DNA of 44,146 nt from a virus (IMGVR_UViG_2698536573_000002); one strand, 5' to 3'. Counted from the first letter of the stretch, positions 16,112-34,892 are shown. Made by a program: numbers and translations. The notes: generated by a model not told the origin, from the sequence alone.

Positions 16112-17968
16112 CTATATGTTTACGCCTTTACTTATAACTCTACGGCGTCTTCTACGTATACCTGACGAGTTCTGCACATACACATTACCTCGCATTTCCT
16201 GTTCGGCAAGCCAGTTAAAATTAGGGTTCAGAATTTCCATCGCGGCAGTTGCATAGTTACGGCAATCAAGAGGCTCGTTACGCTCGTAGACTTTCACCCA
16301 CTTTTCTTTTGTCTGCCCATTTTTATATTCAAATATTTTTTTCTCTGATAATAATCCTTTAAAGTATTCGGTATCATATCCTCTGTCAGAATCTAATGGG
16401 AAATGCATATAACCAGGACCAGGATCATGTAGTTTAATTCTTGCCATGATGGTCCCTTTACCATCATCAACCCCCAAATTAAACAACATAGCACCCACAC
16501 GGTTATTATTACTTGGCTTTCCTATAAATGGTAAACCTACCCCACCACGCCCCCTGATAGAGTATATTCGCCTTGATTCTCTCAGCTTAGTGAAGCGATA
16601 TACCTCTGTCGTAAAATGCCCACCAGAGTCAATACAAACAGAAGAAATCTGTAATTTTCGACCGTCACGGAATGACCAGCTACGGAGTAAGTATTCATCA
16701 AGTTGTTTCCAGACAACATCTTGTGCGGGATCACCTGGGAATATTTTATATTCTATCCCCCATGACTCCTTACCTTTTCCCCAACCGACCAATTCACAAA
16801 CTAAATACGTGTCCTGTACGTCAACACCAGCACTTAACAATAAAACATCATCTGGTAAAAACTCTTCAAACCTTATTCTGCGTTGCAACAAGTATTCAGG
16901 ATCGATATCGTCTTTAGCATCCTCTTTCCATGGCTCACCCAGCTTAAGGTTAATAAACTCCATTAATCCATTTTTATCGCGGTTTCTGGTTGCTTCCGTA
17001 AATTCTTCAACCAGCTCTGACAATGCAACCCACGGGGAGTAAAGACTGTTAATATGAAAACCAACAATACCTTTAACTCCAGTATGTTCAGCTATCCATA
17101 CCCCCTTTGCCAACCAATCAACGTCTGGTTTACCAGATCCGCGCATAATCCCGCCGCACTCACAGCACTCATATCTGGCCGTTTCCGGTAACGCCTCACC
17201 TGAATCGCTCTTATCCCATCTGACTTGCGACCATTTCATCACCTGCATGGTGCCACAACATGGGCAAGGAACATGGTAGTAACGCTGATCGGAGAGCTTA
17301 AACCACTTGTGGATTTTGCTCGTTTCCTCAAAAACAGGAGTAGAAACAAAAACTTTCTTACGATTATGAAAGTTGGTAGTACGCTGAATACCTAGTTTTA
17401 GTGGGTCGCCCTCCTGCGTCACACCGTAACGATCAATCTCATCAGCTAACAGTATTCGAATTGGCCTGGATGCAAGACCTGCTGGGGAATTAGCACCAAC
17501 AAGTGCTATATATCCACCAGCGTAATGCTTCATACGTATAGTCGTGCTGGACTTTTTGGCTGCACCGCGCCCCTCTTTTCCTTCATGCAGCTTGTGTTTC
17601 AAACCAGGGGAATATTTGAACGTCGGATCAATACGCTCCTTTGAAAAAGCCTCAGCCGCCTCTACCGTTGGATAAATCATCAACTGAGGAGATGGCTCCT
17701 GATCTGCAAAGTAACCCATAACATTTAGCTGTAATTCGGATTTACCAATTTGCGAGCTACATTGCATCACTACTGTTTCTGTATCAGCGTCACCAATAAC
17801 ATCCATTGGTTCACGCAAATATGGCACTCGGCTTGTACGCCACGGCCCTGGCTCTGGAGACGTTCCCGGCGCTACATGACGATACTTATCAGCCCATTCG
17901 GAAACAGTTAGCCGTGATTTAGGGCGAAGCGCACGGAAAAAAGCGGTGCTCCATACTGTTTCGCCCAT
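16112..17968 (-). CDS. terminase large subunit, lambda gpA family
   Basis: 618 aa; size and position fit lambda A. Confidence 0.85.
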   Translation of the reverse strand: MGETVWSTAFFRALRPKSRLTVSEWADKYRHVAPGTSPEPGPWRTSRVPYLREPMDVIGDADTETVVMQCSSQIGKSELQLNVMGYFADQEPSPQLMIYPTVEAAEAFSKERIDPTFKYSPGLKHKLHEGKEGRGAAKKSSTTIRMKHYAGGYIALVGANSPAGLASRPIRILLADEIDRYGVTQEGDPLKLGIQRTTNFHNRKKVFVSTPVFEETSKIHKWFKLSDQRYYHVPCPCCGTMQVMKWSQVRWDKSDSGEALPETARYECCECGGIMRGSGKPDVDWLAKGVWIAEHTGVKGIVGFHINSLYSPWVALSELVEEFTEATRNRDKNGLMEFINLKLGEPWKEDAKDDIDPEYLLQRRIRFEEFLPDDVLLLSAGVDVQDTYLVCELVGWGKGKESWGIEYKIFPGDPAQDVVWKQLDEYLLRSWSFRDGRKLQISSVCIDSGGHFTTEVYRFTKLRESRRIYSIRGRGGVGLPFIGKPSNNNRVGAMLFNLGVDDGKGTIMARIKLHDPGPGYMHFPLDSDRGYDTEYFKGLLSEKKIFEYKNGQTKEKWVKVYERNEPLDCRNYATAAMEILNPNFNWLAEQEMRGNVYVQNSSGIRRRRRRVISKGVNI

Positions 17969-17973
17969 GAGGT

Positions 17974-18534
17974 TTATTCTTCCTGCTTAATAAATCGGGA
18001 TTCCTGGAGCGCCTGAAGCGCAAAATTAATCTCGTCTTCAATAATGCGTTCGATCTCCCTGGCTGTTTTGCCTTCACAACGGGGAGCTGCTCTTGGAGCA
18101 ATACTAAATAAGCGGCTACGCAATTCATTAGCTGCCAGAAATGCATCATCCCTGACCGTATCTTTAGCGATGAGAGAGCCTTCCTTTTCTTCAAATTCAA
18201 GGCGTTTCAGCTTTGCCTGATAAATTTTTTCTGCGGTCTTAGCCTTGTTGAATTGCACCGCAACACCGGAAGTACCACCAGCTAATCCGGCATCATCAGC
18301 GGGTAACTCTGGTTGTTCCGAAGATATCCCATGCCCTCTTTTTCCATTTTCAGCAGATACCTCACGACCAACCTGTCGACTCGCTTCATAAGCCGTACTG
18401 GCTTTATCAAAATCCAGCTTGCCGCTTTTCAGCACTGGAATGCGACCGGAACGACAGAGCTTCGTAACCATTGCCGGAGAAATACCTTTCCGGCGGGCAA
18501 ACTCTGACTTACTGACGATGGCCATTACTTGCAA
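17974..18534 (-). CDS. terminase small subunit (putative)
   Basis: 186 aa with N-terminal HTH-like segment immediately upstream of large subunit. Confidence 0.5.
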   Translation of the reverse strand: MQVMAIVSKSEFARRKGISPAMVTKLCRSGRIPVLKSGKLDFDKASTAYEASRQVGREVSAENGKRGHGISSEQPELPADDAGLAGGTSGVAVQFNKAKTAEKIYQAKLKRLEFEEKEGSLIAKDTVRDDAFLAANELRSRLFSIAPRAAPRCEGKTAREIERIIEDEINFALQALQESRFIKQEE

Positions 18535-19115
18535 CCATTAGCAAGATACTGAACAAATCCCTCATGCGTTTCATGCGCATCGTGGTACTGACGATAAACA
18601 TCCAGCAACAATGCAATTTCCATATCCGTCGCGGGAATACGTTCTTTATCAATAGCCAGGTACTTAATTTGAACAACAGGGGAAGAATTATCGTCTTCTT
18701 CCTGCGGCTGTTCATCGCTTAACATTTCGTCAAGCTCTGCATCATTAAACCCAAGCAGATCAATATCAAAATCATCATCCATTAACTCTTTGACTTCTTC
18801 GGCCAGAAGCTGCATATCCCAGCCAGCATTTAAGGCCAGCTTGTTATCTGCAATCCTGTACGCCTTCTTCTGTTTTTCAGAAAGGTTACTCAACCGAATC
18901 GCCGGAACTTTATCCATTTCCAGAATTTCGGCTGCTGCAAGCCGCCCATGCCCCGCAATCAGTTCATTCTTTTCATCGATCAGCACAGGATTAGTGAAAC
19001 CGAACTCACGGATACTGTTCACCAACTGTTCAACTTGCTCATCTGAATGAGTCCGTGAATTTTTGGCATATCTGAGCAGCTTACCGACTGGTAAATATTC
19101 GATTTTTAGAGCCAT
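18525..19115 (-). CDS. ParB-like nuclease domain protein
   Basis: 196 aa; ParB N-domain motif ...ELIAGHGRLAAA...; paralog of 21782-22405. Confidence 0.7.
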   Translation of the reverse strand: MALKIEYLPVGKLLRYAKNSRTHSDEQVEQLVNSIREFGFTNPVLIDEKNELIAGHGRLAAAEILEMDKVPAIRLSNLSEKQKKAYRIADNKLALNAGWDMQLLAEEVKELMDDDFDIDLLGFNDAELDEMLSDEQPQEEDDNSSPVVQIKYLAIDKERIPATDMEIALLLDVYRQYHDAHETHEGFVQYLANGCK

Positions 19116-19672
19116 TTTTTAACCGCCATAACACAACAGGTTAAAGAAAACTGTTTAACTTATTGATACTAAAAGAGAAAAATGACGATCTTTTTACTCA
19201 TAAAAAATCACACAAACCAGCATAATTATCTGATTTTATTAAGTTTTTATAAGTAAAAAGGATCTTGCGATGGTGTTTTGGTTAAAAGATCGGATGTATT
19301 TGCATGATTTATAACGATTTTTATCAGAACAACATCACATTGGTTAAAGATCTGCGCGTATCTTGATGATCTAAAAGAAAATTTCCTACTTTCTTTTTAC
19401 CAGCACAAATACAGCAAAAAATCACGTTTTCCCGATATTTTTCAATGAGATGAGTAAATTTCTTTTACCGCAACTTTTAACCTAACTTTTTTCACGTTTA
19501 GCTAGCCGAACATCGGGGTTCGAATGACCCGCATCCAACGCTTTTGGCCAGAAGGACCCAATTCTGCCGGACGATGAAACGATGCTCGTGCCCACCCACA
19601 GACAGCCAGCGAGCAACGCTACAGAACACAGTGAATACACCCTGCATAACAACACCATCAACCACACGATGA

Positions 19673-20392
19673 TTAACGAGAGAACGTCTTAGAAAGAATG
19701 TCATCAATAGCCTTTGTGACTTCATCAGCAAACGCATTCTCACCAGCACGCAGCGCCACGCCATGCCAATCAAGACGCTGCGAATAGTTAGGTTGCTGGA
19801 TAAACGTAAGGATCAACGTAGGACGCCGCCCAACGCGCTGCCAGACGCCTGGTTGAAGCGGGTTACTTGTACCAGGTCGAACAACAAAAAACTCCGTAGG
19901 CTTGCCCTGACGGCGATTTTGATGCGCATCTCGCTGAACTCTTAGGCCAGATAAGACCTGCTGTAATTGCCCCCGCGAAATATTCCCGTATTTGTCCAGC
20001 TTTGCGCCGGGACCAGGAGCAAGCTGCCAGCCGTTAGGCAAATATCCACCAGCCCTTAGCGCCCCTTCTGAGCGTTTGTACTGTCGTTGGCCACCTTCGA
20101 TTTGCGGAGTCAACGTTACAGGGGCTGGCGTTCCTCCCCATTCACGAGCATACACAATGGCTGTAGGATCACTCTTCTTTGCGGCCAAAACGTAAGTAGA
20201 GTTCTGAATCCACGGCGTGGGCCTGTCAAATACCCGATTAATTTCATTCTTAATCGCAGCCTGAGAAGCCTTTGCCGTTCTGGTTGCCGCAAGCGCCATT
20301 GCGAACGGCAATTCGCGTTCTTCAAGGCGCTGGAGTTGTCGTTGAATATCCTGAGAAGAAAAATCCATCTTTATCTCAATTCTGTCAGCCAC
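19673..20392 (-). CDS. hypothetical protein
   Basis: 239 aa ORF, Gly/Pro/Gln-rich; no family recognised. Confidence 0.3.
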   Translation of the reverse strand: MADRIEIKMDFSSQDIQRQLQRLEERELPFAMALAATRTAKASQAAIKNEINRVFDRPTPWIQNSTYVLAAKKSDPTAIVYAREWGGTPAPVTLTPQIEGGQRQYKRSEGALRAGGYLPNGWQLAPGPGAKLDKYGNISRGQLQQVLSGLRVQRDAHQNRRQGKPTEFFVVRPGTSNPLQPGVWQRVGRRPTLILTFIQQPNYSQRLDWHGVALRAGENAFADEVTKAIDDILSKTFSR

Positions 20393-20408
20393 CAGCGCCT
20401 CCTACACA

Positions 20409-21788
20409 CTACTTAATCAACGGCCGGAAAGCCGTCAGCACATCATCAGATCGTCCGATTGTTGAACCACCAGGCAACGGCAACTCAAACTCAAAACGAA
20501 CAGCTTTCTCCAGACTCTCCCAGCGAAGAGAATCATCGTTAATAACGTGCAAATACCAGCTCTTACAGTTGAATATTGACCGCTTAATCCTGAAACCATG
20601 TACACGACACAACTGCTTCACTTCATCATCAGAGTGGAACTTCTGGTAAAACCAGTGCCCCTTCCGGTACAACGCGGTAAAACCGTTATGATCAATAAAA
20701 TAAAGCCGGCTTTTGGAACTCGCCGCTTGTGTTTGCTTCAGGACTGTTTCCAGCTCTCCACGGCTACGACCAGAAAAGAATATTGACCCACCAGCTTTAC
20801 ACAGGCCTTTCAGAACCGTCAGAACGGACCATTCAGCCTCGACACTATCGACCGAGTTCAAAACGCTATCGCAAATCACGTAGTCGTAACGCCCTCGCGT
20901 TTTTAAGTCGTCCACCAGCGTATCAATCATCCGGTTTGTTGCGGTCCTATCCAGAGTGTTTCCAGCGCCCTTACGGCGGAAAAGCTCGAGATCATGCAGG
21001 TTATATCCCTTTGCCCTGAGCATTCGCGCGTAGTCTCCCTGCCCCGAACCAAAATCAATTCCTCTTGGCGTCTTGGCAATGATCGGGAGGATCAACGACT
21101 CATACAGGTTTGATTTCAGGCTGCCACCATTACGCAACCGCATAAGCTGCGCATACGTCTGGATGTATGTTGTTTTCTCCAGATGAGAATACTCAAATAC
21201 ACCATAAGTTTTATTCAGATAACTTTGGTATTTTTCCTTCTCAACATCAGGGATCACAAACACCGTTAGCGGTGTGCGCGTCATCTTCGCTGCTAATGCA
21301 TACTGAGCACAGTGAATAACCTCGCCAGACTGAGTAGCAACACAACCACCCCACGGACCATACTTGATAACCAGTTCCGCTATGTTCTTTCGAACATATG
21401 CCATTTTCGCGCGCATATTGCCTGAGATCTGGCTTGCCGATACCTGAACAAAACCATGCTTATCTTCCAGACCGGACACCCTGCAACGCTCATCTCCGCT
21501 ATCAAAATCCGTTCCGTTATGCAGTTGGTTAAACCGTACTTCGTCGTATACCGTCGTTTCACAGGGCAACACATACACCGCAGCACGCGTTATTCCCAAC
21601 TTACGTAGCGCCTTCGTCCTTTGGTGTCCCGCCACCAGCAAATCGCCGCGCACTATCAATGGCTTCACAAGCCCCAGCTCCCTGACGCTTTCCGCTAGCC
21701 TCGCAAGATCATCCTCACCGATAAAACGCGGGTTATATTCCGCGCCGCGTAGGTGCGTTATGTCGTAATTGAGGTGAAGCATCAGCAC
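20409..21788 (-). CDS. ParB-like nuclease domain fused to SAM-dependent methyltransferase domain
   Basis: 459 aa; N-terminal ParB motif (LVAGHQRTKA), C-terminal class I MTase motif I (IDFGSGQGDYARML) and DYVICDSVL; no DPPY-type motif. Confidence 0.6.
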   Translation of the reverse strand: MLMLHLNYDITHLRGAEYNPRFIGEDDLARLAESVRELGLVKPLIVRGDLLVAGHQRTKALRKLGITRAAVYVLPCETTVYDEVRFNQLHNGTDFDSGDERCRVSGLEDKHGFVQVSASQISGNMRAKMAYVRKNIAELVIKYGPWGGCVATQSGEVIHCAQYALAAKMTRTPLTVFVIPDVEKEKYQSYLNKTYGVFEYSHLEKTTYIQTYAQLMRLRNGGSLKSNLYESLILPIIAKTPRGIDFGSGQGDYARMLRAKGYNLHDLELFRRKGAGNTLDRTATNRMIDTLVDDLKTRGRYDYVICDSVLNSVDSVEAEWSVLTVLKGLCKAGGSIFFSGRSRGELETVLKQTQAASSKSRLYFIDHNGFTALYRKGHWFYQKFHSDDEVKQLCRVHGFRIKRSIFNCKSWYLHVINDDSLRWESLEKAVRFEFELPLPGGSTIGRSDDVLTAFRPLIK

Positions 21789-22405
21789 ACCTCCCCAGCC
21801 AGCAATGCGGATACAAATCCGATATAGCTGCCATTATCATCAACATAACGAGACACCGCGCAGTCAAAACGATCCGCTTCCTCATCCGTTGCCGGGATTT
21901 TATGACCTCCAAATGACAGGTACTGAACTTTTACGCCTGATTTGGCCTCATCCTTCTCAAATGGGATATCCATACCCTCTGTGTCATCGTAGACCGCCGC
22001 ACTCAATAAGTTATCCAGTTCGCGCTGAGTAAAACCAATTGAGTCCAGAGCAAAATCATCGGCCGCAAGATCTGCAAGCTCCGCGCTTAACAACTCTTCA
22101 TCCCAACCAGCATTCAGCGGAATACGGTTGTCGGCCAGACGATATGCCTTCTTCTGATTCTCCGTTAGCCCAGCCAGAACAATGCAGGGAACATCATCCA
22201 TCCCCAACTGAGTGGCCGCAGCAATTCGACCATGACCAGCAATTACAACGTTGTTCTCGTCTATCAGGATCGGATTAGTCCATCCGTACTCCTGTATGCT
22301 GGCAATAATCTGATCTACCTGCTCCACGGAGTGTGTGCGAGCGTTCTTTTCATAACCAATCAACACAGAAAGTGGTAAAGAAACCACATTAAGATGTTTT
22401 GTCAT
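21782..22405 (-). CDS. ParB-like nuclease domain protein
   Basis: 207 aa; ...VIAGHGRIAAA... and QKKAYRLADN shared with 18525-19115. Confidence 0.7.
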   Translation of the reverse strand: MTKHLNVVSLPLSVLIGYEKNARTHSVEQVDQIIASIQEYGWTNPILIDENNVVIAGHGRIAAATQLGMDDVPCIVLAGLTENQKKAYRLADNRIPLNAGWDEELLSAELADLAADDFALDSIGFTQRELDNLLSAAVYDDTEGMDIPFEKDEAKSGVKVQYLSFGGHKIPATDEEADRFDCAVSRYVDDNGSYIGFVSALLAGEVC

Positions 22406-23827: not shown

Positions 23828-24415
23828 TTATGCCACTTGCCAGAGAGCATCATGCAACTGGATACCTCCATTGCACTGGTTGCCCCAGCCATGCCAACCA
23901 TCAGGTAAATCACCGCGAGCAAACAGCTCAATACGAGGAACATCACCTAACAGCCTTACCAGCTTGTCACGAACCACATCAGGCTTCCGAGAATGCTCCA
24001 GACGAGGCGATGTAAACGACTGAATGATCCCCGCATCAAGGCGGGTCGGCAATTTGCCTTTTACCGCAAACAAGCAATCTTCACTGTTTGCACGAGTCAT
24101 ATGCCCCATCCCCATCACCAGCTTATCTGGTTGTCGGCTACCACATTTGTTCCATGTGAAGCCCTTCATGGTCATAAGCCTGAATCCCCATGCTTTCACC
24201 ACCAGCAACGCTTCTTCTGGCTGAGTCGGAACCCACCACATGGCCAACAAACACGATTCAGGATTAGCAAGCTGCCAGACAGGAATACGAGCAATATCCT
24301 CAGCTTTCATCGTTGGATACTTAAAACCAGCTCCACGATTCCCATCCTTACACTTATCTTTGTATTCCCAGGGGGGATCTGCATAAATCAGATTAAACAA
24401 TGCAATTGCCTCCAT
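23828..24415 (-). CDS. MT-A70 family DNA N6-adenine methyltransferase
   Basis: 195 aa starting ...LIYADPPWEY (DPPW catalytic motif near N-terminus). Confidence 0.75.
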   Translation of the reverse strand: MEAIALFNLIYADPPWEYKDKCKDGNRGAGFKYPTMKAEDIARIPVWQLANPESCLLAMWWVPTQPEEALLVVKAWGFRLMTMKGFTWNKCGSRQPDKLVMGMGHMTRANSEDCLFAVKGKLPTRLDAGIIQSFTSPRLEHSRKPDVVRDKLVRLLGDVPRIELFARGDLPDGWHGWGNQCNGGIQLHDALWQVA

Positions 24416-24723: not shown

Positions 24724-24799
24724 TGGTGGCCCCTACCGGATTTGAACCGATGACCGTGCGATTATGAGTCGCCTGCTCTAACCACTAAGCTAAGGGGCC
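24724..24799 (-). tRNA. tRNA with anticodon CAT, ileX/ileY-like (tRNA-Ile2 type; Met not excluded)
   Basis: 76-nt cloverleaf: acceptor GGCCCCT/AGGGGCC, D-arm GCTTAGTGGTTAGAGC, anticodon loop CTCATAA, T-arm GGTTCAAATCC, encoded CCA. Confidence 0.8.
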
Positions 24800-33930: not shown

Positions 33931-33946
33931 CATGGAGTCTCGACAA

Positions 33947-34600
33947 ATGACTATATCTGTAGGTATTTTCAACGGAAAAGGCGGCGTAACCAAATCAACC
34001 ATTGCTCGTGCTTTAGCAGTTGCTTATGCAAAGGCTGGCTGGAATGTATGCCTGATCGATATGGATGTGCTTAACGGAACGGTAACGCGTTGGGTACAAC
34101 GCAGAATGGCCAACAATATCGAACCTGCAATCGCGGCGCAGCCGTGCGGCACGCCATCACAAGTCCAGAAAATCATCGAATCAGAAGTATACGACCTGGT
34201 TATCGTTGATGGCGGTGCCTACGCATCTGAATCAGTACCGAAGCTCTCTGAATTTCTGGATATGGTTATTTTGCCAACCAGATTCTCTACCGATGACCTG
34301 GAAACCACCGTTAACACAGCTCACGGCATCGTTAAAAAGGGTGTACCAATCAAGAAAATTTGCATGGTGTTTTCCGGCGCGGCTGAAAACGAAGCTGACT
34401 ATATTGAAGCCCAAGAGTACCTGGCTAATACGCCATACTTTGTTGTCGATAAGTACATTCCCCACAAGCCAGCTCTGAGCAAAGCTCAGGATAAAGGCTT
34501 AAGCCTCATTGAGTGCTCATACGTTGCGCCACGCAAAAAAGCAGACGACGTTATTCAGGGGATTATCAACCAGCTTGAGGCTCTGACTACTGCCGCGTAA
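33947..34600 (+). CDS. ParA/ParF-type partition ATPase
   Basis: Deviant Walker A GIFNGKGGVTKST; start at second ATG (GGAG 9 nt upstream); ORF from 33932. Confidence 0.8.
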   Translation: MTISVGIFNGKGGVTKSTIARALAVAYAKAGWNVCLIDMDVLNGTVTRWVQRRMANNIEPAIAAQPCGTPSQVQKIIESEVYDLVIVDGGAYASESVPKLSEFLDMVILPTRFSTDDLETTVNTAHGIVKKGVPIKKICMVFSGAAENEADYIEAQEYLANTPYFVVDKYIPHKPALSKAQDKGLSLIECSYVAPRKKADDVIQGIINQLEALTTAA

Positions 34601-34643
34601 TATATAATTATAGTTTTATAGATTTATATAAGAGAGGATACAC

Positions 34644-34892
34644 ATGGCCGCACCATCAAAACCACCAAAGAAGAACAGCAAAGGCGTACCGCCATCGATC
34701 GAACAACCGCAGGTTTTCGACCCGACTGAAACGCCAGCCAGAACCAAATCAGGTGGGGCACAAATGGCGTTTAACGTCGACCCTGAATTTAAACGCGAGT
34801 ACAAAACGTTCGCCAGCTCAATGGATATGTCATTGAAAGAAGTGCTAACAAAATCTTTTGAGTTACTCAAGGCTCAATACAACCAGAAGTAA
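34644..34892 (+). CDS. ParG-like ribbon-helix-helix partition protein
   Basis: 82 aa, unstructured basic N-terminus then RHH-like MAFNVDPEFKREYKTFASSMDMSLKEVL; RBS GAGAGGA. Confidence 0.55.
   Translation: MAAPSKPPKKNSKGVPPSIEQPQVFDPTETPARTKSGGAQMAFNVDPEFKREYKTFASSMDMSLKEVLTKSFELLKAQYNQK

What the first reader, a model, noticed from the sequence alone, without database searches (positions are those of the whole stretch)
18525..22405. Three ParB-nuclease-domain proteins next to the terminase, one fused to a non-DPPY methyltransferase
Two paralogous ~200-aa ParB-N-domain proteins bracket a 459-aa ParB-N plus class I SAM-MTase fusion and a 239-aa unknown protein, directly upstream of the terminase genes in the late operon. 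The MTase domain has motif I (FGSGQG) but no DPPY/DPPW, so its substrate is unclear. The cluster may act in DNA modification, packaging-site processing or anti-restriction.
Basis: partly seen in the sequence, partly recalled or inferred. Interest (0 to 1): 0.6.

Follow-up and report, generated by a model that had tools for sequence, protein, structure and literature searches.

The report
Phage ParB-plus-methyltransferase cassette beside cos
A plasmid-borne E. coli phage carries, just before its DNA-packaging genes, a widely conserved but uncharacterised gene pair (a small ParB-like protein plus a ParB-like protein fused to a methyltransferase that lacks the motifs of DNA methylases); the other two genes of the reported cluster are a probable virion neck protein and a duplicated ParB gene joined to the small terminase gene.

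Summary
All four ORFs exist at the stated coordinates on the minus strand, and the domain calls hold: three ParB/Srx-fold domains, and one class I SAM methyltransferase (Methyltransf_23) with motif I and no DPPY. The cluster is not one unit.

1. ParB207 plus the 459-aa fusion form a conserved cassette. A ~200-aa ParB gene lies directly upstream of the fusion in 60 of 61 viral loci and at least 62 of 73 bacterial loci across several phyla. The cassette sits upstream of at least four terminase families.
3. The 557-bp gap holds the cos site. The inferred 12-nt cohesive end, GGTCATTCGAAC, is at 19518-19529, so the cluster spans the virion genome ends.
4. ParB196 is a lineage-specific paralogue of ParB207 (47% identity) whose stop overlaps the TerS start (TAATG).

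The ParB–Methyltransf_23 architecture was catalogued as phage-enriched in 2025, but its function is unknown. The best guess is an NTP-gated, ParB-assisted late modification enzyme acting on phage DNA. The methyltransferase resembles small-molecule and tRNA enzymes, so the substrate is unresolved.

The parts
21782..22405 (-). ParB207: a stand-alone ParB/Srx-fold protein (207 aa) and the conserved partner gene of the fusion. Its TGA stop (21784-21782) overlaps the fusion's ATG (21782-21780).
   Evidence: phrog_620 E 1.2e-73. ParB_N 22.9 bits. It matches the N-terminal ~150 aa of ParB-N6 methyltransferase profiles: phrog_498 E 2.1e-50 and PADLOC MTase_II E 3.7e-37. An orthologue lies directly upstream of the fusion in 60/61 viral and at least 62/73 bacterial loci. 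Overlap shown.
21495..21788 (-). Fusion protein, N-terminal ParB/Srx-fold domain (residues 1-98). Box II is AGHQR (53-57) and the Box III-like motif is FNQLHNGTDxD (86-96).
   Evidence: ParB_N 24.3 bits. phrog_620 E 2.3e-14. Spo0J/ParB PDB hits. Invariant residues in 41 homologues. Strand-helix-strand-strand-helix-strand-helix pattern in the AF2 model.
21174..21494 (-). Fusion protein, middle domain (residues 99-205), strongly conserved and with no family assignment. Invariant residues are N124, R133, G144, W146, G147, V150, G155, H159, Q162, Y163, L191, Y195, G196, F198 and Y200.
   Evidence: Alignment A1. The model is confident here and repeats the secondary-structure order of the ParB domain, but hhalign finds no similarity (probability 0.2%). 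This region is found almost only behind a ~100-aa N-terminal domain.
20412..21173 (-). Fusion protein, class I SAM-dependent methyltransferase domain (residues ~206-459). Motif I is DFGSGQGD, motif II is E268, and the motif IV position reads CDSVLNSVD rather than DPPY.
   Evidence: Methyltransf_23 32.6 bits against a cut-off of 27. The Foldseek PDB top 50 are generic, small-molecule or tRNA class I methyltransferases, with no DNA methyltransferase. No DPPY-type or PC[QK] motif in 41 members.
19673..20392 (-). orf239: a probable virion neck or tail-completion protein with an HK97 gp10-like fold. It is the last gene before cos and is not part of the ParB/methyltransferase cassette.
19518..19529 (-). 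Inferred cosN 12-nt cohesive end, GGTCATTCGAAC on the gene strand.
   Evidence: The records of Yersinia phages vB_YpM_39 and 41 start with these 12 nt. The record of vB_YpM_44 ends with them and starts just after them. The core GGGTCATTCG(A/T)ACCCCG is the best-conserved block of the gap in relatives whose fusion is 90% and 69% identical. The terminase is GpA (lambda) type.
19116..19517 (.). AT-rich non-coding stretch between cosN and ParB196, a candidate cosB. It holds five TTTAACC repeats (19118, 19139, 19280, 19342, 19476) and five GATC sites (19187-19371).
   Evidence: 5 of the 14 TTTAACC matches in the window lie here. The relative L016 carries about seven copies of TTGTTAACC in the same place. 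No Rfam family matches. No sigma-70-like promoter was found in the gap.
18525..19115 (-). ParB196: a second stand-alone ParB-fold protein, a lineage-specific paralogue of ParB207 and the first gene after cos. Its TAA stop (18527-18525) overlaps the TerS ATG (18525-18523).
   Evidence: 47% identical to ParB207. phrog_620 E 4.6e-75. ParB_N 33.7 bits. A second copy in this position occurs only in the closest clade, L011-L016. Overlap shown.
17974..18525 (-). Small terminase subunit.
   Evidence: phrog_57, E 2.4e-41.
16112..17968 (-). Large terminase subunit, lambda gpA type.
   Evidence: GpA_ATPase E 4.7e-76 and GpA_nuclease E 5.2e-84.

Best explanation
The window is a ~48.5-kb cos-type myovirus that lives as a plasmid (a phage-plasmid). 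The reported cluster is a mosaic of three things that meet at the genome junction.

(1) A conserved cassette. A stand-alone ParB-fold protein (ParB207) is translationally coupled to a three-domain enzyme: a ParB-fold NTP-binding domain, a conserved middle domain and a class I SAM methyltransferase.

Inferred mechanism. The cassette is made with the late genes. The two ParB-fold domains engage each other, or DNA, in an NTP-dependent way, as ParB N-domains do. This activates or positions the methyltransferase on replicated phage DNA shortly before packaging. The mark it leaves is not the usual m6A, m4C or m5C and would protect or label the DNA.

(2) orf239 is a gp10-like neck protein gene, followed by the cos site.

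(3) ParB196 is a lineage-specific duplicate of the stand-alone ParB gene, now coupled to TerS. It may give the terminase the same kind of ParB accessory.

Shown here: the gene anatomy, the folds, the conservation of the pair, its position, and the cos site. Inferred only: heterodimerisation, NTP gating, DNA as the target, and late timing.
For: Anatomy and folds.

The pair is a unit:
- A ~200-aa ParB gene sits directly upstream of the fusion in 60/61 IMG/VR loci, mostly overlapping it.
- The same holds in at least 62/73 genome loci from Proteobacteria, Bacillota, Actinobacteria, Bacteroidota, Planctomycetota and Chloroflexota. Six of the eleven apparent exceptions are over-extended ORF starts in high-GC genomes.
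- In the window the two genes overlap as TGATG.
- The middle-plus-methyltransferase part occurs almost only behind a ~100-aa N-terminal domain (421 cluster representatives).

Position next to packaging genes:
- A GpA TerL lies within 5 kb in 18/56 loci. Terminase_6, Terminase_3 and TerL_ATPase families occur among the rest.
- The same order is seen in a Streptomyces venezuelae prophage whose fusion is ~30% identical.

NTP pocket: the Box II arginine (R57) and the Box III asparagine (N87) are invariant in the fusion family.

Literature:
- PMC12704722 lists ParB-CTPase + Methyltransf_23 as a phage-enriched fusion and reports ATP binding by a ParB-SAM-methyltransferase fusion.
- PMC13229309 shows that a stand-alone phage ParB lacking a DNA-binding domain is required to activate a neighbouring DNA-modifying enzyme.

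Link to DNA methylases: the small ParBs are most similar to the ParB domain fused to phage adenine DNA methylases.

cos site. orf239.
Against: - Nothing shows that DNA is the substrate. The methyltransferase domain lacks both DNA methyltransferase signatures.
- Its 50 best structural neighbours are small-molecule, natural-product, glycine and tRNA methyltransferases.
- The phage already has a canonical DPPW MT-A70 adenine methylase 1.4 kb upstream.
- The ATCC 25922 lysogen, which carries a 99.4% identical copy, shows only methylation motifs already assigned to other enzymes (PMC12679398). Late-only expression, or a mark those base-callers do not detect, would also give this result.
- In the 5mYOX system, mutations in the ParB NTP pocket did not abolish activation (PMC13229309), so NTP gating is not assured.
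- About 57% of dereplicated loci have a third conserved gene that the window lacks. The two-gene form here may therefore be incomplete.
- Late co-transcription is inferred only from shared strand, gene order and the absence of promoter hits.
Confidence: 0.45

Rival explanations
1. The methyltransferase acts on something other than DNA. Candidates are a protein of the packaging or virion machinery, an RNA or tRNA, or a nucleotide or small molecule such as a host defence signal. The ParB fold would then serve as an NTP-binding regulatory or substrate-binding module.
For: - The structural neighbours are all non-DNA methyltransferases, including Trm9, METTL6, GNMT and natural-product C-, N- and O-methyltransferases.
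- There is no DPPY or PC[QK] motif.
- ParB/Srx folds also act as ATP-using enzymes on non-DNA substrates, such as sulfiredoxin and SerK (cited in PMC12704722).
- The lysogen has no orphan DNA methylation motif (PMC12679398).
- A third conserved Cys/His-rich small protein often follows the fusion and could be a protein substrate or partner.
Against: - The stand-alone partner is the ParB type found fused to DNA adenine methylases.
- Every experimentally studied phage ParB-fold accessory seen in the papers read here acts with DNA-modifying enzymes (PMC13229309, PMC5512222).
- The fixed position next to the terminase fits a DNA-directed role.
Confidence: 0.3
2. The ParB-fold proteins are packaging accessories, ParB196 above all. 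They would be NTP-dependent DNA-binding or nicking factors that help the terminase recognise or cut cos or pac, much as HNH endonucleases do in HK97-like phages. The methyltransferase would mark or regulate the packaging site.
For: - The cassette sits directly upstream of terminases of at least four families across phyla.
- ParB196 is the first gene after cos, and its stop overlaps the TerS start.
- A repeat-rich, GATC-rich region lies between cosN and ParB196.
- HNH endonucleases occupy the same position next to cos and the terminase (PMC3592412).
- A ParB domain fused to a methylase was reported to nick DNA (cited in PMC5512222).
Against: - Lambda-type GpA terminases are not known to need an accessory nuclease (my own knowledge).
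- The second ParB next to TerS is confined to one small clade, so it is not a general requirement.
- The small ParBs have no recognisable DNA-binding domain.
- Genes at this position are often accessory cargo.
Confidence: 0.15
3. The ParB-like proteins are the partition (centromere-binding) proteins of the phage-plasmid.
For: - The element is a plasmid in 78 of 81 E. coli occurrences.
- Database names call these proteins partition proteins.
Against: - There is no HTH_ParB domain. TIGR00180 scores 16-40 bits against a cut-off of 58.
- The ParA-like gene is 11.5 kb away on the other strand and has its own 82-aa downstream ORF.
- The same cassette occurs in integrated prophages and in phages of many phyla, next to terminase genes.
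Confidence: 0.03

Closest known systems
ParB-CTPase-fold + Methyltransf_23 fusions of phages, catalogued in PMC12704722 (PNAS 2025); PHROG phrog_5475
   Same: Same Pfam architecture. The window protein matches phrog_5475 end to end (E 1.2e-264). These fusions are enriched in phages and prophages. An NTP (ATP)-binding ParB pocket was reported for a ParB-SAM-methyltransferase fusion.
   Different: That survey gives only the architecture and nucleotide binding. It reports no substrate, no partner gene and no genomic position. I could not check whether the tested constructs (uvig_65837_18 and a UBA3002 protein) belong to this exact family.
ParB-N6_N4 adenine DNA methyltransferase fusions of phages and prophages (phrog_498; B. 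cereus Bce_0392 type, cited in PMC5512222)
   Same: A ParB fold is joined to a SAM methyltransferase, often near the terminase or a genome end. ParB196 and ParB207 match the first ~150 residues of these proteins at E 1e-37 to 1e-52.
   Different: The catalytic domain here is Methyltransf_23 without DPPY, not N6_N4_Mtase. The methylase-type ParB is a separate polypeptide. The fusion's own ParB domain is a divergent type (28% identity to ParB207 over 74 residues). An extra conserved middle domain is present.
ParB-dependent phage thymine dioxygenases (5mYOX + ParB; PMC13229309)
   Same: A stand-alone phage ParB-fold protein with no evident DNA-binding domain is encoded next to a DNA-modifying enzyme and is needed to activate it, with cognate-pair specificity. 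This is the best functional analogue for ParB207 plus the fusion.
   Different: The enzyme there is an Fe/2OG dioxygenase with no ParB domain of its own. Here the enzyme is a methyltransferase that carries its own ParB domain. Activation has not been tested here.
HNH endonucleases encoded next to cos and the terminase (PMC3592412; HK97 gp74 from my own knowledge)
   Same: A small accessory nucleic-acid enzyme gene at the cos/terminase junction. This is the positional analogue for ParB196.
   Different: The fold is unrelated. A role for a ParB-fold protein in cos cleavage has not been shown anywhere I could find.
HK97 gp10 family neck (head-tail joining) proteins
   Different: orf239 is more than twice as long. 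It has no Pfam match and is encoded before cos, apart from the other head-tail genes.

Membership tests
ParB/Srx (ParB-CTPase fold) superfamily | Profile match to the ParB N-terminal domain, with the Box II GxxR arginine and the Box III asparagine. | tested here: met
   ParB_N and PHROG ParB profiles match all three proteins. PDB hits are Spo0J, ParB and Noc. Box II reads AGHGR in the small proteins and AGHQR in the fusion; the N of ADN or FNQ is present. The Glu of the canonical GERR is replaced by His in all three.
Canonical partition ParB (ParABS) | HTH_ParB DNA-binding domain, C-terminal dimerisation domain, an adjacent parA gene, and a score above the TIGR00180 cut-off. | tested here: not met
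   No HTH_ParB hit. TIGR00180 scores 40.1, 30.5 and 16.4 bits against a cut-off of 58.45. The ParA-like gene is at 33932-34600 on the other strand, with its own 82-aa partner ORF.
Class I SAM-dependent methyltransferase (Methyltransf_23) | Rossmann-like fold, motif I GxGxG, an acidic motif II residue, and a Pfam score above the cut-off. | tested here: met
   32.6 bits against 27. DFGSGQGD and E268 are invariant or nearly so. The AF2 model and the Foldseek hits are class I methyltransferases, E down to 2.6e-9.
Amino-DNA methyltransferases (N6A/N4C: N6_N4_Mtase, MT-A70, Dam) | (D/N/S)PP(Y/F/W) catalytic motif after strand 4. | tested here: not met
   No such motif in the window protein or in 40 homologues. 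The motif IV position reads CDSVLNSVD. No N6_N4_Mtase or MT-A70 Pfam hit.
C5-cytosine DNA methyltransferases | PC(Q/K) catalytic cysteine motif together with ENV. | tested here: not met
   No PC[QK] motif in any of the 41 sequences. ENV occurs at unrelated positions in 3 of them. No DNA_methylase Pfam hit.
ParB-activated DNA-modifying enzyme pair (as 5mYOX/ParB) | A stand-alone ParB lacking a DNA-binding domain, encoded next to the enzyme. | tested here: met
   60/61 viral and at least 62/73 genomic loci. No DNA-binding domain was detected in ParB207.
ParB-activated DNA-modifying enzyme pair (as 5mYOX/ParB) | Enzyme activity on DNA depends on co-expression of the cognate ParB. | not testable with these tools
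   This needs co-expression followed by nucleoside analysis.
Lambda-like cos packaging | GpA-type terminase and defined cohesive ends at a conserved cosN upstream of the small terminase gene. | tested here: met
   GpA domains. A 12-nt segment sits at opposite ends of independent phage records. The core is conserved in relatives. The strand polarity of the overhang was not determined.
HK97 gp10 family (for orf239) | Structural match to a gp10-family neck protein, or a sequence-profile match. | tested here: inconclusive

The most novel reading that the evidence does not exclude
The small ParB, the ParB-methyltransferase fusion and, in most lineages, a third Cys/His-rich protein form a new kind of phage DNA-marking system. 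An NTP-gated ParB heterodimer would deliver a small-molecule-type methyltransferase to DNA, possibly at or near the packaging site. The mark would be outside the m6A/m4C/m5C repertoire, for example another base position or the backbone. In this phage-plasmid lineage, a duplicated ParB (ParB196) would link that machinery to the small terminase at cos.
Probability: 0.12. Interest if true: 0.8.

Novelty: new variant of a known kind. Interest (0 to 1): 0.45.

Why it matters
ParB-fold proteins are now being recognised as nucleotide-gated accessories of DNA-modifying enzymes in phages. This cassette is widespread: about 420 clusters at 50% identity, across several bacterial phyla. It is held tightly next to the packaging genes, yet it has no known substrate.

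This element offers a tractable E. coli model. The standard strain ATCC 25922 carries a 99.4% identical copy, and infective Yersinia/E. coli phages carrying it are available. Finding the substrate could reveal a new phage DNA modification or a new layer of packaging control. It would also explain why a ParB domain is so often attached to phage methyltransferases.

The practical corrections matter for annotation:
- These genes are not plasmid partition genes.
- orf239 is probably a structural protein.
- The cos site of this phage-plasmid family can be placed at 19518-19529.

Tried and rejected
- Second ParB fold in the fusion's middle domain. The AF2 secondary-structure order repeats, but hhalign between residues 1-98 and 99-205 gives a probability of 0.2%. 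No model coordinates were available for a domain-level fold search, so this stays an unverified lead.
- Known defence or anti-defence role. PADLOC matches only the ParB part of a type II methyltransferase model.
- Sequence search of the PDB with the fusion gave only weak ParB and generic methyltransferase hits.
- Non-coding RNA in the region. No Rfam match at E <= 0.1.
- Independent promoter or terminator structure in the gap. The scans were at or below chance.
- Partition role. Rejected; see the membership test.
- Third conserved gene of the cassette. Searched for in the window and in the ATCC 25922 plasmid with an HMM at E <= 10 and found absent. It has no Pfam, PHROG or PDB match.
- ATCC 25922 methylome literature. 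No orphan motif, which does not discriminate between the hypotheses.
- GATC clustering in the gap. The enrichment is only modest once the number of possible windows is considered.

Full report
**What is in the sequence**

All genes in this part of the window run on the minus strand. They are followed by a small terminase (17974-18525/18534) and a lambda gpA-type large terminase (16112-17968). A 557-bp stretch with no convincing ORF (19116-19672) separates orf239 from ParB196.

**What element this is**

The region is 99.2-99.8% identical to ~48.5-kb circular plasmids of E. coli, including a plasmid of strain ATCC 25922. It was found in 74 of 5,426 complete genomes, and 78 of the 81 places are on plasmids. 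It also matches Yersinia phages vB_YpM_39, 41 and 44 and an Escherichia phage. The ATCC 25922 record carries RepA, a ParA gene, a toxin-antitoxin pair, a lysis cassette and a full myovirus head and tail gene set. The element is therefore a phage-plasmid.

**Domain checks**

- **ParB fold.** Pfam ParB_N passes its cut-off only for ParB196 (33.7 bits). ParB207 (22.9) and the fusion (24.3) fall just below 26.3.
  - The PHROG ParB family phrog_620 matches the two small proteins end to end (E 4.6e-75 and 1.2e-73) and residues 7-74 of the fusion (E 2.3e-14).
  - PDB sequence hits are Spo0J, ParB and Noc.
  - Most homologues of the fusion carry a precomputed PF02195 hit.
- **Paralogy.** ParB196 and ParB207 are 47% identical over their full length (E 8e-62). 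ParB207 and the fusion's N-domain are only 28% identical over 74 residues.
- **Type of small ParB.** The two small proteins match the first ~150 positions of profiles for ParB-N6-adenine methylase fusions (phrog_498, E about 1e-50; PADLOC MTase_II, E about 1e-37 to 1e-40). In GenBank phages their relatives are mostly the N-terminal part of annotated adenine methylases.
- **Methyltransferase.** Methyltransf_23 passes its cut-off (32.6 against 27 bits, residues 233-400). The AF2 model built on 41 homologues is confident (pLDDT 92.4, pTM 0.89).
  - Its 50 best PDB neighbours are all generic class I SAM methyltransferases: uncharacterised structural-genomics enzymes, Trm9, METTL6, glycine N-methyltransferase and natural-product C-, N- and O-methyltransferases. 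None is a DNA methylase.
  - Motif I (DFGSGQGD) and the motif II glutamate (E268) are conserved.
  - No member of the alignment has a (D/N/S)PP(Y/F/W/H) or PC(Q/K) motif.

The word 'nuclease' is only the old name of the Pfam domain.

**The conserved unit is a gene pair**

The fusion belongs to a family of fixed ~460-aa architecture. At least 716 homologues were found among the candidates scored. It matches PHROG phrog_5475 (function unknown) end to end (E 1.2e-264).

An exhaustive search with residues 100-459 alone found 421 cluster representatives. In nearly all full-length hits the match starts at residue ~100-135. The middle-plus-methyltransferase part therefore exists essentially only behind an N-terminal ~100-aa domain.

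I collected 77 viral loci and 78 genomic loci.

- **Viral loci.** 60 of the 61 with enough upstream sequence have a ~200-aa ParB gene directly upstream on the same strand, usually overlapping the fusion's start.
- **Genomic loci.** At least 62 of 73 show the same. Six of the eleven apparent exceptions are Streptomyces or Kitasatospora loci where my crude ORF caller over-extended the fusion's start. The hosts span Proteobacteria, Bacillota, Actinobacteria, Bacteroidota, Planctomycetota and Chloroflexota.

In the window the ParB207 stop and the fusion's ATG overlap as TGATG. This points to a 457-aa fusion, as RefSeq annotates it, and to translational coupling.

By contrast, orf239 and a second ParB downstream occur only in the closest clade (fusion identity 69% or more; loci L009-L016).

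**Position**

A gpA-type TerL lies within 5 kb downstream in 18 of the 56 viral loci with enough sequence. Among the first large downstream ORFs of 29 other loci, 15 match Terminase_6C, 10 Terminase_6N, 5 Terminase_3 and 3 TerL_ATPase/TerL_nuclease. In a Streptomyces venezuelae prophage whose fusion is ~30% identical, the pair again sits 1.8 kb before a Terminase_6 gene. The cassette therefore keeps its place just before the packaging genes whatever the terminase family or packaging mode.

**A third gene elsewhere**

I clustered all neighbours of the fusion in 79 dereplicated loci. In 45 of them a ~145-aa gene directly follows the fusion, and its start often overlaps the fusion's stop by 4-23 nt. 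It is a real family: W19, H31-C32, Y65, C67, N78, H80 and C130-R131-N132 are invariant. It has 242 homologues, all hypothetical, and no Pfam, PHROG or PDB sequence match. It is absent from the window and from the ATCC 25922 plasmid. The window therefore carries a two-gene version of what is often a three-gene cassette.

**orf239**

- It has no Pfam or NCBIfam hit but matches phrog_1924, labelled 'minor tail protein' (E 4e-97).
- Its 105 homologues are all unannotated.
- In three distant phages the gene lies immediately before TerS and gpA TerL, or at the very end of a ~41-kb contig, with no ParB or Methyltransf_23 gene nearby.
- The AF2 model (pLDDT 86) gave nothing significant with Foldseek.

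orf239 is therefore most likely a virion neck or tail-completion protein and not part of the ParB/methyltransferase system. This rests on one structural match and a database label.

**The gap holds cos**

The records of Yersinia phages 39 and 41 begin with GGTCATTCGAAC and end just before it. The record of phage 44 ends with the same 12 nt and begins just after it. That is what a 12-nt cohesive end looks like when it is assigned to either end of a linear assembly. It places cosN at window 19518-19529.

The block GGGTCATTCG(A/T)ACCCCG is the best-conserved part of the gap in relatives whose fusion is 90% and 69% identical.

Between cosN and ParB196 lie 5 of the window's 14 TTTAACC matches and five GATC sites within 185 bp. 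The relative L016 has about seven TTGTTAACC copies in the same place. These are candidate protein-binding (cosB-like) sites. I could not tell whether TerS or ParB196 binds them.

In the virion, ParB207, the fusion and orf239 therefore sit at the right end and ParB196, TerS and TerL at the left end. They are neighbours only in the circular or concatemeric form. As in lambda, late transcription could still run across cos. Nothing here tests that beyond the shared strand and the lack of promoter or terminator signals above chance.

**ParB196**

It is the first gene after cos, and its TAA stop overlaps the TerS ATG as TAATG. This is the same one-base overlap that links ParB207 to the fusion. Both paralogues were already present in the common ancestor with L016. 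The arrangement suggests, without showing, that the duplicate was recruited to work with the small terminase.

**Not partition**

- None of the three proteins has an HTH_ParB domain.
- TIGR00180 scores are far below its cut-off.
- The window's ParA-like gene (33932-34600, plus strand) has its own 82-aa downstream ORF.
- The cassette is common in integrated prophages.

**Comparison with the literature**

- PMC12704722 surveyed the ParB-CTPase fold. It lists Methyltransf_23 among the domains fused to it preferentially in phages and calls it a predicted DNA methyltransferase. It reports ATP binding by a ParB-SAM-methyltransferase fusion, and its supplementary tables list a phage Methyltransferase23 construct with an R-to-A pocket mutant. 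I could not check whether those proteins belong to this family.
- PMC13229309 shows that a stand-alone phage ParB lacking a DNA-binding domain is needed to activate a neighbouring thymine dioxygenase on DNA, with cognate specificity.
- PMC5512222 summarises reports of nicking and NTPase activities of ParB domains, including one fused to an adenine methylase.
- Only 7 of 50,697 GenBank phage records encode the fusion, and none is characterised.
- The ATCC 25922 lysogen shows only GATC, CCWGG, RTACNNNNGTG and GGTCTC/GAGACC methylation, all assigned to other enzymes (PMC12679398). This fits late-only expression, an undetected kind of mark, or a non-DNA substrate equally well.

**Most likely mechanism**

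Shown: the anatomy, the folds, the conservation of the pair and its position, and the cos site.

Inferred: ParB207 and the fusion act together, probably through their ParB-fold domains and a bound NTP. The Box II arginine and the Box III asparagine are invariant in the fusion family, although the hydrolytic Glu of GERR is replaced by His. The methyltransferase would then be activated or positioned on replicated phage DNA late in infection, leaving a non-canonical methyl mark before packaging.

I put about 0.45 on this reading. I put 0.3 on a non-DNA substrate, because the catalytic domain looks like small-molecule and tRNA enzymes and the phage already has a canonical DPPW MT-A70 methylase at 23828-24415. 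I put 0.15 on a direct packaging role, which is strongest for ParB196.

**Verdict**

The architecture is already catalogued, so this is not a new kind of system. It differs from the characterised ParB-methylase and ParB-activator systems in its catalytic domain, its split partner and its fixed place next to the terminase. Its substrate is an open and testable question in an easy E. coli model. Interest: 0.45.

Noticed in passing
Related loci, e.g. L021:1610-2041, L007:2210-2644, L005:8419-8883, L143:7441-7953 (not in the window): A third conserved gene (~145 aa) directly follows the ParB-methyltransferase fusion in 45 of 79 dereplicated loci across several phyla. Invariant residues are W19, H31-C32, Y65, C67, N78, H80 and C130-R131-N132, and the consensus ends in TCRNxQF. 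It has no Pfam, PHROG or PDB match, and its 242 homologues are all hypothetical. It is absent from the window's element.
   Followed up: partly
window 19518-19529 and 19116-19517: The cos site can be placed from the ends of three Yersinia phage records (12-nt GGTCATTCGAAC). The stretch between it and ParB196 holds 5 of the window's 14 TTTAACC matches. A relative (L016) has about seven TTGTTAACC copies in the same place. These are candidate terminase-binding or ParB-binding sites.
   Followed up: partly
window 19187-19371: Five GATC sites lie within 185 bp of the cos-proximal region, against a window average of one per 356 bp. This recalls Dam-regulated packaging sites such as P1 pac (my own knowledge). 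The enrichment is only modest once the number of possible windows is considered.
   Followed up: no
window 23828-24415 (minus strand): A canonical MT-A70 family DNA adenine methyltransferase (E 3.4e-23; DPPW present in LIYADPPWEY) lies 1.4 kb upstream of ParB207. The phage therefore already has a conventional DNA methylase besides the non-DPPY fusion.
   Followed up: partly
window 21174-21494 (fusion residues 99-205): The highly conserved middle domain of the fusion repeats the strand-helix-strand-strand-helix-strand-helix order of the ParB domain in the AF2 model, with VIHCAQYA where the first domain has VAGHQRTKA. It may be a degenerate second ParB/Srx fold. hhalign does not support this (probability 0.2%).
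   Followed up: partly
window 33932-34892 (plus strand): A separate partition-type locus: a ParA-like ATPase (CbiA/ParA/MipZ hits) followed by an 82-aa ORF with no family match, 11.5 kb from the ParB-like genes.
   Followed up: partly
window 19302-19391: Yersinia phage vB_YpM_44 lacks this 90-nt segment of the cos-to-ParB196 spacer. Part of the spacer, including one TTTAACC copy (19342-19348) and two GATC sites (19349 and 19368), is therefore dispensable for a viable phage.
   Followed up: no
window 24724-24799 (minus strand): One tRNA gene with a CAU anticodon lies between the lysis genes and the MT-A70 gene. It is called Met by ARAGORN and in the Yersinia phage record, and Ile in the ATCC 25922 RefSeq record.
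   Followed up: no
L134, L136 (Bacteroidaceae, Prevotella) and L112 (Kouleothrix): Some genomes carry two or three tandem paralogues of the ParB-methyltransferase fusion behind a single small ParB gene.
   Followed up: no
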